Source of the DNA: Fibrobacterota bacterium
GTDB lineage: Bacteria > Fibrobacterota > Fibrobacteria > UBA11236
NCBI GenBank assembly: GCA_028287465.1
Contig: JAQBPO010000003.1
Span: 12,912 to 76,911 of the forward strand
Direction of reading: 5' to 3'
Length of the DNA: 64,000 nucleotides
Below the pieces are notes generated by a model, which was given only the letters and a program-made list of their open reading frames with translations, had not been told where the DNA came from and made no database searches. The position numbers and the translations under genes are program-made. Below, in pieces: positions 2,393-3,222 of this stretch. Position 1 is the stretch's first letter. Each line of letters begins with the position of its first letter.

Positions 2393-3222
2393 TCGACCGT
2401 TTACACCCTACCGGCCAGGCCGGAGGCGGAATGCTGAGCGTAGTCGCCGTAATCGGCGTGGTCCTATTGCTTGTCCAGGGCACCATGTACCACCGGGCCA
2501 AGGGGAGCGCGGCCTTCCTGGGATCCGAAAAGACCAAGGTCCTGGCCCTGCAAATGGCCGAGGCCGGGGTCGAGGACAATATCGCCGATATCGGGGCGAG
2601 GACCCTCCGGATCAGGAGCGGCCTGATCGACACCGTGACCTATGACCACAAGTCCCTGGAAGGGGGATTCTACACGTCCAGGCTGACGACCGTGGCAACG
2701 GGAGCGGCGGCCGATACCATCGATCTGGTTTCCGCCGGAACGGTCGGCAAGGCCACCCAAACCGTTCGGGCGCGTCTCAAATTGAAAAAGCACCTCGACA
2801 CGACCCGGACGCCCATCCTTACGGTCACTCCCGTCAGCGTATCCACCTTGGTGACCCATGCGGTCCCGGAAACGACCGTGACGGTTTTGAAACCTGAATC
2901 CGTGCCGCCATTGAATTCGACCTCCGCCTATACCGCCTGCATGTCCTCCGCATCCAATAAGTGCGATGTCTGCCACCTGCCTTCCGGGGACGTGACCAAG
3001 GCAGTTGTCATCGAGGTTTCGAAACCATCGATCGGAACCCATGTTAGCCATCATGGGGATTACGTGACCACGGACAAGAGCTGCGATTTGTACAAGCCCA
3101 AGGCGAACATCACCATCCATACCATCACGGAGATGGTTACCACCCTGGTCGACAAAACCACCTACGATACCACCGTCTCCATCGATACGACGGTCAAGGT
3201 GCAGATCCTTTCCTGGAAATGA
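2389..3222 (+). CDS. PilX/GspK-like pseudopilin with Thr/Val/Pro-rich linker and C-terminal Cys/His module, cassette A
   Basis: ATGA overlap at 2389-2392. Hydrophobic N-terminal helix GGGMLSVVAVIGVVLLLVQG lacks Glu+5 and is followed by LALQMAEAGVE (PilX N-terminal-like). The tail reads ..AYTACMSSASNKCDVCHLPSGD..GTHVSHHGDYVTTDKSCDLY..VKVQILSWK. Confidence 0.75.
   Translation: MIDRLHPTGQAGGGMLSVVAVIGVVLLLVQGTMYHRAKGSAAFLGSEKTKVLALQMAEAGVEDNIADIGARTLRIRSGLIDTVTYDHKSLEGGFYTSRLTTVATGAAADTIDLVSAGTVGKATQTVRARLKLKKHLDTTRTPILTVTPVSVSTLVTHAVPETTVTVLKPESVPPLNSTSAYTACMSSASNKCDVCHLPSGDVTKAVVIEVSKPSIGTHVSHHGDYVTTDKSCDLYKPKANITIHTITEMVTTLVDKTTYDTTVSIDTTVKVQILSWK

What the first reader, a model, noticed from the sequence alone, without database searches (positions are those of the whole stretch)
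2920..3222. Conserved Cys/His C-terminal module (with CxxCH in two copies) on the predicted pilus-tip subunit
Three proteins share a tail of the following form (2920-3222, 5720-6031, and the edge gene at 215-445):
- C-H-[LY]-P, then about 7-10 residues and a hydrophobic strand.
- [AGT]-H-x2-H, then G/P-D-Y.
- 3-5 residues, a Cys, then about 40 residues ending I-[IL]-S-W-K/E.

For example: KCDVCHLPSGD..GTHVSHHGDYVTTDKSCDLY..VQILSWK. Each copy has four Cys in this region.

In the two PilX/GspK-like proteins the first part reads C-D-V-C-H and C-N-V-C-H, which is literally the c-type haem attachment motif CxxCH (2962-2976 and 5762-5776). The edge copy has only L-C-H, so a haem site is not conserved. 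A Zn/Cu/Fe-binding or disulfide-stabilised knob is the more conservative reading.

A metal- or haem-binding domain at the tip of a type IV filament would be unusual. I have a vague recollection of similar 'CHxP...HxxHGD...C' mini-modules in other uncharacterised secreted proteins, but I cannot verify that here.
Basis: partly seen in the sequence, partly recalled or inferred. Interest (0 to 1): 0.7.

Follow-up and report, generated by a model that had tools for sequence, protein, structure and literature searches.

The report
Cys/His knob on pilus-tip proteins
Three related pilus-tip proteins of a soil Fibrobacterota bacterium each carry one copy of a small, widespread but undescribed secreted Cys/His module that is most likely held by disulfides and binds a metal through three histidines and an aspartate; it is not a haem site.

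Summary
All three tails share C-H-x-P, H-x2-H and a later Cys, and each has four Cys, at the stated coordinates. These residues are invariant or nearly so in 97 full-length Fibrobacterota homologues.

The haem reading fails:
- The first Cys of CxxCH (C192) is lost only together with C184 (5 of 98 sequences, never one alone). That points to a C184-C192 disulfide.
- The third window copy lacks CxxCH, and so do about 500 related repeats elsewhere.

The core, about 40 residues, is one copy of a widespread repeat: K-[IV]-T-I-C-H-x-P-P-G-N-P-x-N-x2-T-I…A-H-x2-H-G-D-x2-G-x-C.
- It occurs in at least 1151 protein clusters across many bacterial and archaeal phyla, with up to 23 copies per protein.
- It has no Pfam or NCBIfam model, no matching PDB sequence or fold, and no paper containing its motif strings.
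- In these repeats the three His and the Asp are kept or lost as a block, while the two Cys always stay. I read this as a His3Asp metal site plus a separate disulfide.

In a confident AlphaFold model the module is a beta-beta-alpha knob at the end of a long two-stranded ribbon that projects from a PilX/ComZ-like pilin body. The "ILSWK" motif is the last strand of the pilin fold, not part of the module. Metal binding and adhesion are inferred, not shown.

The parts
2389..3222 (+). PilX/ComZ-like tip minor pilin, short form (277 aa), carrying the Cys/His knob
   Evidence: ORF. 97 full-length Fibrobacterota homologues. AlphaFold model pLDDT 91.5 with a long N-terminal helix at residues 13-70. Foldseek to ComZ 6qvi: prob 0.91-0.97 but E 0.15-0.57. 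It follows two N_methyl pilin genes.
2752..2883 (+). Outgoing long beta-strand (residues 122-165): last sheet strand of the pilin body, continuing into a Thr/Val-rich ribbon stalk
   Evidence: DSSP on the model shows E122-165, with pLDDT about 89-94. Foldseek matches to long-hairpin proteins (lysenin and aerolysin pores, phage tail knobs) are weak.
2896..3099 (+). Knob (residues 170-237): helix 179-186, then beta 191-196, beta 206-211, helix 212-218, loop to C232
   Evidence: DSSP. The knob-only model has pLDDT 93.6 and pTM 0.80. No PDB or BFVD structural relative was found.
2959..3084 (+). Core mini-module of protein 1 (K191-C232). Proposed disulfide C195-C232; proposed metal ligands H196, H218, H221/H222, D224; extra pair C184 (2938-2940) with C192 (2962-2964)
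   Evidence: hhalign of the knob family against canonical repeats: 98%, E 2.8e-13. Conservation. C184 and C192 are lost together. The wide-family HMM hits this region at E 1.7e-7.
3100..3216 (+). Returning long beta-strand (residues 238-276), ending in V-Q-I-L-S-W-K, the last strand of the pilin fold
   Evidence: DSSP shows E238-276. W276 is invariant, S275 95/98 and L274 93/98. This segment lies outside the region matched by the wider repeat family.
5132..6031 (+). Second short-form PilX-like tip pilin (299 aa), 53% identical to the first
5759..5887 (+). Core mini-module of protein 2 (K210-C252): C214, H215, H238, H241, D244, C252; extra pair C203 with C211
   Evidence: Alignments A1, A2 and A4. 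Cys positions. This copy is too divergent for the wide-family HMM alone.
2..445 (+). C-terminal 147 aa of a long-form PilX-like tip pilin, cut by the window edge
   Evidence: The full-length homologue L083 6942-8435 (497 aa) has the same pilin N-terminus, an insert of about 280 aa, then the module and the last strand.
215..343 (+). Core mini-module of the edge copy (K72-C106, plus C114): C76, H77, H99, H102, C106; second pair C83 with C114; no G-D after the second helix His
   Evidence: The wide-family HMM gives E 1.7e-10.
377..412 (+). Last pilin strand of the edge copy (D-T-T-I-Q-L-K-I-I-S-W-E)
   Evidence: Alignment with the short forms.
1173..2392 (+). Two prepilin-type minor pilin genes of cassette 1 (1173-1595 and 1592-2392)
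   Evidence: Pfam N_methyl at E 1e-4 and 2e-6. TIGR02532 at E 3.8e-5 for the second gene (1592-2392); sub-threshold (E 0.097, below cut-off) for the first.
3979..5135 (+). Two prepilin-type minor pilin genes of cassette 2 (3979-4374 and 4371-5135)
   Evidence: Pfam N_methyl at E 8.5e-5 and 2.7e-8.
652..1176 (+). Conserved predicted membrane protein at the head of cassette 1 (paralogue at 3302-3982); function unknown
   Evidence: The same gene order is seen in L001 and L083.

Best explanation
The three tails belong to paralogous PilX/GspK/ComZ-like tip minor pilins of a type IV filament.

**Architecture.** The chain leaves the pilin beta-sheet and makes an excursion: a Thr/Val-rich two-stranded ribbon in the short forms, or a domain of about 280 aa in the long form. 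It then forms a small knob and returns as the last pilin strand (…I-L-S-W-K).

**The knob.** It is one copy of a widespread extracellular mini-domain of 38-45 residues with a predicted beta-beta-alpha structure. I propose the following, all inferred rather than shown:
1. The invariant Cys pair (C195-C232) closes the module as a disulfide.
2. In the short forms a second disulfide (C184-C192) ties a preceding helix to the hairpin. The long form has a different second pair.
3. H196, H218, H221/H222 and D224 together chelate one divalent metal ion, most plausibly Zn2+. The metal identity is a guess.
4. The knob is displayed at the far end of the filament and acts as a contact or adhesion element.

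The CxxCH string is an accident of the extra disulfide Cys lying three residues before the conserved C-H. It is not a haem attachment site.
For: **Shown here**
- Conservation of C195, H196, H218, H221/H222, G223, D224 and C232 across 98 proteins.
- C184 and C192 are absent together in 5/98 sequences and never singly. They are replaced by an aromatic plus a small residue (F/A, F/T, W/A), and four of these five sequences have a Cys-bearing nearest neighbour.
- The core is homologous to a widespread repeat: hmmsearch finds 1151 representatives at E<=1e-3 and matches only profile positions about 11-57; hhalign gives 98%, E 2.8e-13.
- Of 474 repeats with all six key columns aligned, 434 read C-H-H-H-D-C. 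All 23 repeats lacking the first His also lack the other two His and the Asp, while both Cys are present in all 474. Pairwise Fisher P is 1e-29 to 1e-36, without correction for relatedness. These repeats come from at least 9 representative proteins.
- Replacements at H221 in the pilin family are mostly other metal ligands: D in 4, E in 2, C in 1, F in 1.
- The models are confident (pLDDT 91.5 full length, 93.6 knob) and show beta-beta-alpha between two very long strands.
- The carriers look secreted or surface-located: hydrophobic N-termini in 100 of 130 complete sequences, lipoprotein examples, T9SS tails, PKD and cadherin-like domains.
- Tip-pilin assignment: gene order after two N_methyl pilins, resemblance to ComZ, weak PilX_N hits, and one homologue named PilX by JGI.

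**From the literature**
- Modular pilins with grafted, sometimes metal-binding, adhesive modules are established (PMC8179133).
Against: - No atomic coordinates were available, so neither Cys-Cys nor His-His distances could be measured.
- Metal binding, metal identity and disulfide state are inferred from sequence patterns only.
- The His/Asp block loss may trace to one old repeat subtype rather than many independent events.
- The edge copy lacks the G-D, and protein 2 is too divergent for the wide-family HMM alone.
- The ComZ and PilX_N similarities are below formal significance: Foldseek E 0.15-0.57, Pfam E>=0.019.
- The long ribbon is a prediction for a monomer and could pack differently in the tip complex.
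- No pilus motor or secretin gene lies in the window.
Confidence: 0.6

Rival explanations
1. c-type haem attachment: C192-x-x-C195-H196 binds haem covalently, making a redox-active pilus tip.
For: A literal CxxCH is present in 93/98 short-form homologues. H196 is invariant. The protein is exported.
Against: - C192 is lost in 5/98 sequences, always together with C184, which indicates a disulfide partner.
- The edge paralogue has only L-C-H.
- In 554 related repeats the -3 position is I or V (86%), and Cys is not among the five commonest residues there. H196 is nonetheless conserved together with H28, H31 and D33.
- No cytochrome c or Ccm/Ccs gene was found among the 40 large window ORFs scanned, and no other CxxCH occurs in ORFs of 150 aa or more.
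Confidence: 0.03
2. Zinc-knuckle type site in which the conserved Cys are themselves metal ligands (Cys2His2-like) and there is no C195-C232 disulfide.
For: The predicted beta-beta-alpha layout has a Cys on the hairpin and His on or after the helix. Some members give weak sub-threshold hits to the zinc-binding zf_CopZ model (best E 0.0057, below the cut-off).
Against: - In all 23 repeats that have lost every His and the Asp, both Cys are retained, so the Cys have a role independent of the His/Asp site.
- The proteins are extracellular, where Cys pairs are usually oxidised (general knowledge).
- No fold match to any zinc finger was found in the PDB.
Confidence: 0.12
3. A purely structural disulfide-stapled knob with no metal. 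The His and Asp residues form a hydrogen-bond or pH-sensitive network, or a direct ligand-binding surface.
For: Degenerate repeats lacking all His and the Asp still exist and presumably fold. No direct evidence for metal was obtained.
Against: - Three His plus an Asp are kept in 434 of 474 repeats across bacteria and archaea and are lost only as a block.
- Substitutions at H221 favour D, E and C. This is the usual signature of a shared metal site (inference).
Confidence: 0.2
4. A beta-beta-alpha-metal (HNH-like) nuclease or DNA-binding finger on a ComZ-like DNA-uptake pilin.
For: The pilin body resembles the DNA-binding competence pilin ComZ. The spacing His…Asn…His over a beta-beta-alpha unit loosely recalls HNH motifs (recalled from memory, not tested).
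Against: - Foldseek found no match to any HNH or beta-beta-alpha-Me structure.
- Arrays of up to 23 copies in surface proteins, and stand-alone lipoproteins, do not look like nucleases.
- No Pfam HNH hit was found.
Confidence: 0.03

Closest known systems
Modular type IV pilins, e.g. Streptococcus sanguinis PilB (pilin module plus vWA module with a metal-binding MIDAS) and PilC (PMC8179133)
   Same: A pilin module carries an extra functional module that is probably exposed at the filament tip. In PilB that module binds a divalent metal and mediates adhesion.
   Different: - Here the extra module is unrelated to vWA and is very small (about 40-65 aa).
- It is inserted before the last pilin beta-strand rather than appended after the fold.
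- It sits on a predicted long ribbon.
- Metal binding is only inferred.
GspK / PilX / ComZ-type tip minor pilins (ComZ, PDB 6qvi)
   Same: - The gene follows two smaller minor pilin genes.
- There is a long N-terminal hydrophobic helix without the usual Glu5.
- A large insertion sits within the pilin sheet.
- Foldseek probability is 0.91-0.97 over about 110 residues.
   Different: - Sequence similarity is marginal: PilX_N E>=0.019 in 6/98 members; Foldseek E 0.15-0.57.
- The inserted element is a ribbon plus a Cys/His knob, not the ComZ beta-solenoid or the GspK alpha-domain.
The unnamed 38-residue repeat K-[IV]-T-I-C-H-x-P-P-G-N-P-x-N-x2-T-I-x-[IV]-x3-A-x2-A-H-x2-H-G-D-x2-G-x-C of secreted bacterial and archaeal proteins
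   Same: The window modules are copies of it, with the same C, H, H, H, (G-D), C signature.
   Different: - The pilin copies are single, not tandem.
- They have one extra residue before G-D and a longer loop to the last Cys.
- They have lost most of the P-P-G-N-P turn.
- They carry an extra disulfide pair.
- The family has no Pfam or NCBIfam model, no matching PDB sequence or fold, and no paper containing its motif strings.
Classical Cys2His2 zinc fingers and beta-beta-alpha-metal motifs
   Same: Small predicted beta-beta-alpha unit with His on or after the helix.
   Different: - Only one Cys lies on the hairpin in the wider family.
- The Cys persist when the His are lost.
- The setting is extracellular.
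- No structural match was found.

Membership tests
c-type cytochrome haem-attachment site | CxxCH conserved in homologues | tested here: not met
   The first Cys is absent in 5/98 pilin homologues and in the edge paralogue. In 554 related repeats the -3 position is I or V in 86%, and Cys is not among its five commonest residues.
c-type cytochrome haem-attachment site | Both motif Cys free for thioether bonds | tested here: not met
   C192 co-varies perfectly with C184: both present in 93 sequences, both absent in 5, never one alone. This indicates a disulfide. The evidence is sequence only, not chemistry.
c-type cytochrome haem-attachment site | Cytochrome c maturation system (Ccm or CcsBA) in the genome | not tested
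   None was found among the 40 large window ORFs scanned, but the rest of the genome could not be examined.
PilX/GspK/ComZ-like tip minor pilin | N-terminal hydrophobic pilin helix after a short leader, without Glu5 | tested here: met
   The sequence reads …QAGGG-MLSVVAVIGVVLLLVQG…. The model has a helix at residues 13-70.
PilX/GspK/ComZ-like tip minor pilin | Encoded last in a cluster with other prepilin-type minor pilins | tested here: met
   N_methyl hits on both preceding genes in both cassettes. The same order is seen in L001 and L083.
PilX/GspK/ComZ-like tip minor pilin | Significant match to a curated family model or a solved structure | tested here: inconclusive
   PilX_N matches only 6/98 members, best E 0.019. 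ComZ 6qvi gives prob 0.91-0.97 but E 0.15-0.57.
PilX/GspK/ComZ-like tip minor pilin | Located at the filament tip | not testable with these tools
   Requires imaging or biochemistry.
Widespread 38-residue CH…HxxHGD…C repeat (uncurated) | Profile match to canonical repeats | tested here: met
   hmmsearch with the tail profile. hhalign 98%, E 2.8e-13. The reverse HMM hits the edge copy at 1.7e-10 and protein 1 at 1.7e-7; protein 2 is linked only through its 53% identity to protein 1.
Widespread 38-residue CH…HxxHGD…C repeat (uncurated) | Signature residues C5, H6, H28, H31, G32-D33, C38 | tested here: met
   Proteins 1 and 2 have all of them. The edge copy has C, H, H, H, C but no G-D.
Cys2His2 zinc finger / beta-beta-alpha-metal fold | Beta-hairpin plus helix | tested here: met
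   DSSP shows E191-196, E206-211 and H212-218.
Cys2His2 zinc finger / beta-beta-alpha-metal fold | Cys and His act as one ligand set, and the fold resembles solved members | tested here: not met
   The Cys are retained in all repeats that lost every His and the Asp. No PDB match better than E 5 was found.
Modular pilins (pilin module plus grafted module) | Recognisable pilin module plus a separate module not specific to pilus biology | tested here: met
   The same module occurs in non-pilin surface proteins and lipoproteins. The concept is from PMC8179133.

The most novel reading that the evidence does not exclude
The 38-residue CH…HxxHGD…C unit is a new extracellular metal-binding fold: a His3Asp site on a disulfide-closed beta-beta-alpha scaffold, used across bacteria and archaea. 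In these Fibrobacterota it is held out on a ribbon of about 9 nm at the pilus tip, where it mediates metal-dependent attachment, or metal sensing or capture. Alternative tip cassettes would provide different heads.
Probability: 0.35. Interest if true: 0.7.

Novelty: new variant of a known kind. Interest (0 to 1): 0.5.

Why it matters
**A domain family to define.** The module is very common: at least 1151 clusters at 50% identity, from Planctomycetota and Bacteroidota to Nitrosopumilaceae and Woesearchaeota. Yet it has no curated model, no matching PDB sequence or fold, and no paper containing its motif strings. Defining it would annotate many "hypothetical" surface proteins. It also offers a small, tractable unit of about 40-70 residues for testing an unusual extracellular His3Asp site.

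**Pilus biology.** This is another way of building a modular tip pilin: the module is inserted before the last pilin strand, on a stalk. It also hints that soil Fibrobacterota swap tip complexes between cassettes.

**Closing off a misreading.** The analysis rules out a tempting but wrong interpretation, a haem-bearing and possibly conductive pilus tip.

Tried and rejected
- **Pfam and NCBIfam scans** of the three window proteins, six multi-repeat relatives and 76 further relatives found no model covering the module. There were only sub-threshold zf_CopZ and PilX_N hits.
- **PDB sequence searches** with the tail profile and the repeat profile found nothing relevant.
- **Foldseek** of the knob against the PDB and BFVD gave nothing better than E 1.4.
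- **Full-text searches** for motif strings (PPGNP, CHIPPGNP, AHLAHGD and others) returned no relevant paper.
- **The word-indexed homologue search** with the tail profile or the edge tail found only 2-3 proteins. The full-length query was needed to reach the 97 homologues.
It worked with a tighter alignment.
- **Haem reading:** rejected on co-variation and family evidence.
- **HNH-like nuclease idea:** rejected for lack of any structural or profile support.
- **Not possible:** model coordinates are not exposed, so ligand geometry and Cys-Cys distances could not be measured.
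Full report
**1. What is at the locus**

Bases 1-6031 of the window hold three tandem minor-pilin cassettes on the + strand. 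Each complete cassette has four genes:
- a small predicted membrane protein (652-1176; 3302-3982);
- two prepilin-type proteins with Pfam N_methyl hits (1173-1595 and 1592-2392; 3979-4374 and 4371-5135);
- a larger protein with a hydrophobic N-terminal helix (2389-3222, 277 aa; 5132-6031, 299 aa).

The window begins inside the last gene of a preceding cassette (2-445).

C-D-V-C-H lies at 2962-2976 and C-N-V-C-H at 5762-5776. Each tail has four Cys.

**2. The pattern is real and conserved**

A search with the full-length protein returned 97 homologues of 43-72% identity covering about 97% of the length. All that carry a name come from Fibrobacterota or Fibrobacteria metagenome-assembled genomes.

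In the 98-sequence alignment A4:
- C195, H196, G223, C232 and W276 are invariant.
- H218 is kept in 96, D224 in 97, Y225 in 97, H221 in 90 and H222 in 84.
- C184 and C192 are each kept in 93.

A syntenic locus in a Fibrobacterota MAG (L001) has the same gene order next to alanine racemase, with two such proteins in tandem.

**3. All three copies are tip-type pilins, and "ILSWK" is a pilin strand**

A metagenome contig (L083) carries a full-length relative of the edge gene, 497 aa long. Its first 130 residues match window protein 1 (35% identity, E 2e-19). Its C-terminal module plus last strand also match (E 4e-06). About 280 residues with no Pfam hit lie in between.

The AlphaFold2 model of protein 1, built on the 98-sequence alignment, is confident (mean pLDDT 91.5). 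It shows:
- a helix at residues 13-70;
- a small sheet at 82-119;
- two very long strands at 122-165 and 238-276;
- between those strands, a compact unit: helix 179-186, strand 191-196, strand 206-211, helix 212-218, then a loop to C232.

So the chain leaves the pilin sheet, runs out as one strand of a ribbon, forms the knob and returns as the partner strand. It ends in V-Q-I-L-S-W-K. I estimate that about 28 residues per strand lie beyond the pilin body. At 3.3 Å per residue the knob would sit roughly 9 nm out. This is a prediction for an isolated monomer.

Foldseek against the PDB gave two kinds of match, neither formally significant:
- The N-terminal part matched the competence pilin ComZ of Thermus thermophilus (6qvi; probability 0.91-0.97, E 0.15-0.57).
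- The ribbon matched long-hairpin proteins (lysenin and aerolysin pores, phage tail knobs).

Pfam PilX_N matches only 6 of 98 members, at E 0.019 or worse.

I accept the tip-pilin assignment on gene order, the N-terminal helix without Glu5 and the ComZ resemblance. It is not formally proven.

**4. The haem reading fails**

- The five homologues that lack C192 are exactly the five that lack C184. No sequence has lost only one.
- The replacements are an aromatic plus a small residue (F/A, F/T, W/A), which is typical for filling the space of a lost disulfide.
- Four of the five have a Cys-bearing sequence as nearest neighbour. The loss therefore probably happened more than once, though a single old event is not excluded.
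- C192 thus behaves as the disulfide partner of C184, not as a free haem-attachment Cys.
- The edge paralogue has only L-C-H.
- Among ORFs of at least 150 aa in the window, the only CxxCH strings are these two.
- Forty large ORFs of the window scanned against Pfam include no cytochrome c or Ccm/Ccs gene.

**5. The core is a widespread, undescribed repeat**

A profile of six tails, searched against 1.84 billion cluster representatives, found 1151 proteins at E<=1e-3 and 140 at E<=1e-10. The matches cover only profile positions about 11-57 and usually occur several times per protein.

The matched proteins contain tandem copies of a 38-residue unit:

K-[IV]-T-I-C-H-x-P-P-G-N-P-x-N-x-x-T-I-x-[IV]-x-x-S-A-x-x-A-H-x-x-H-G-D-x-x-G-x-C

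- I found 554 copies in 145 of the 148 listed proteins, with 1 to 23 copies each.
- hhalign of the pilin-knob alignment against canonical repeats gives 98% probability and E 2.8e-13. It pairs H218 with repeat position 28, H222 with position 31 and G223-D224 with positions 32-33. H221 is an inserted residue.
- An HMM built from the non-window repeats recovers the edge copy (E 1.7e-10) and protein 1 (E 1.7e-7) in a six-frame search of the window. It does not recover the more divergent protein 2.
- The strict peptide pattern [IL]CH[IVY]PPGNP alone occurs at 584 or more confirmed places in species-representative genomes. Among the 80 best loci listed are Planctomycetota, Bacteroidota (including cultured Tenacibaculum and a Chitinophagaceae isolate), Myxococcota, Bdellovibrionota, Acidobacteriota, Gemmatimonadota, Chloroflexota, Actinomycetota, Fibrobacterota, Nitrosopumilaceae, Woesearchaeota, Pacearchaeota and Thermoplasmata.
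- The carriers look secreted or surface-bound. 100 of 130 complete sequences have a hydrophobic N-terminus. Small Fibrobacterota lipoproteins carry one or two repeats. Co-occurring domains are PKD, cadherin-like, T9SS tails and several DUFs.

Nothing curated covers the repeat:
- no Pfam or NCBIfam model;
- no PDB sequence even at E 10;
- every source name found for the 10 relatives looked up is "hypothetical protein", apart from one evidently wrong "transposase";
- no paper containing the motif strings.

The knob-only model is confident (pLDDT 93.6, pTM 0.80). It has no structural relative in the PDB (best E 5.1) or in BFVD (best E 1.4). Small domains are hard for Foldseek, so this is weak negative evidence.

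**6. How it most likely works**

474 repeats have all six key columns aligned:
- 434 read C-H-H-H-D-C.
- 23 lack the first His. Every one of these also lacks the other two His and the Asp, which are replaced by Y, by Q/L/K/N and by A/S.
- Both Cys are present in all 474.
- Pairwise Fisher P values are 1e-29 to 1e-36. They ignore relatedness and so overstate independence.
- Degenerate repeats occur in at least nine representative proteins, often interleaved with canonical ones.

The simplest reading has two parts:
- The two Cys form a structural disulfide closing the module.
- The three His and the Asp act together, which is what ligands of a single metal ion do.

In the pilin family the substitutions at H221 are D (4), E (2), C (1) and F (1). 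Apart from P0093, which has lost all three of H218, H221 and H222, and P0099, which keeps H218 with Asp at 221, at least one of H221/H222 is always kept. This supports a ligand role.

A His3Asp set is typical of Zn2+ sites, for example the Zn site of Cu,Zn-superoxide dismutase (general knowledge). It also occurs with Mn, Fe, Ni and Cu. The metal cannot be named from sequence.

Function at the tip is inferred by analogy with modular pilins. Raynaud et al. showed that such pilins are widespread. They also showed that S. sanguinis PilB binds Mg2+ or Mn2+ through a MIDAS and acts as an adhesin (PMC8179133). In Fibrobacter succinogenes, pili are among the proposed means of attachment to cellulose (abstract of PMC4668043).

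What is shown and what is inferred:

| Step | Status |
|---|---|
| Homology of the knob core to the widespread repeat | Shown |
| Conservation of the key residues | Shown |
| Paired loss of C184 and C192 | Shown |
| Block loss of the three His and the Asp | Shown |
| Predicted secondary structure and topology | Shown (as a prediction) |
| Disulfide state | Inferred |
| Metal binding and metal identity | Inferred |
| Tip location | Inferred |
| Adhesive role | Inferred |

**7. Rivals**

- **Haem:** about 3%.
- **Cys-ligated zinc knuckle:** about 12%. This is disfavoured because the Cys persist when the His are gone.
- **Purely structural knob, with His serving another role:** about 20%.
- **HNH-like finger on a DNA-uptake pilin:** about 3%, with no structural or profile support.

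**8. Novelty and verdict**

The general kind, a tip minor pilin carrying a grafted module, is known. So is metal binding by such a module. Three things are new:
- the module itself, a very common but uncurated Cys/His mini-domain with a tightly coupled His3Asp signature;
- its insertion before the last pilin strand;
- the predicted stalk.

I rate this a new variant of a known kind, with interest 0.5. Its cautious interpretation and its recollection of related modules are supported. Its haem suggestion is rejected.

Noticed in passing
window 1-6031; L083 5268-10743; L001 8243-11779: There are several tandem minor-pilin cassettes, each ending in a different PilX-like protein. The short forms carry a ribbon and the long form carries an insert of about 280 aa. 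L001 has two short forms back to back. This looks like a set of alternative pilus tips.
   Followed up: partly
window 2752-2883 and 3100-3216: The AlphaFold model predicts an unusually long two-stranded Thr/Val-rich beta-ribbon, with about 28 residues per strand beyond the pilin body and pLDDT about 87-95. Its weak Foldseek matches are to pore-forming toxin stems and phage tail knobs. Whether it is free-standing or packs against partner pilins is unknown.
   Followed up: partly
window 652-1176 and 3302-3982; L001 8243-8833; L083 5268-5783: A conserved small predicted membrane protein (motif …ALYW.[FY]ALYD[FY]…) heads the pilin cassettes. It has no Pfam or NCBIfam match.
   Followed up: no
L083 6942-8435: The long-form tip pilin (497 aa) has an insert of about 280 aa between the pilin body and the Cys/His module. 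The insert has no Pfam hit, and its sequence suggests a beta-rich domain.
   Followed up: partly
P0104, P0170, P0182, P0211 (representative-library proteins): Large proteins interleave canonical repeats (C-H-H-H-D-C) with degenerate ones (C-[FNY]-Y-Q-A-C) that keep the Cys pair but have lost all proposed metal ligands. P0170 consists almost entirely of the degenerate type.
   Followed up: partly
L071 2821-3183; L079 2596-3300: Other Fibrobacterota encode small lipoproteins (lipobox …GC) that consist of little more than one or two canonical repeats plus low-complexity tails.
   Followed up: no
P0101 (1224 aa): This low-GC-style protein has 13 repeats. It also has a weak N-terminal plastocyanin-like hit (TIGR02656, E 2.9e-4, below cut-off) and a C-terminal match to the ATP-dependent DNA ligase C-terminal region (Pfam DNA_ligase_A_C, 34.1 bits against a 27.5-bit cut-off, E 3.7e-8). 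The cupredoxin hint might point to copper, but it is not significant.
   Followed up: no
window 7802-9076: A 424-aa pentapeptide-repeat protein with an apparent signal peptide lies just downstream, conserved in synteny with L001 and L083. A 996-aa Kelch-repeat protein lies at 33637-36627 in a GC-rich stretch (0.669).
   Followed up: no
The word-indexed protein search found only 2-3 relatives when queried with the tails but 97 with the full-length protein. Absence of hits from that tool with short queries should not be read as rarity.
   Followed up: yes
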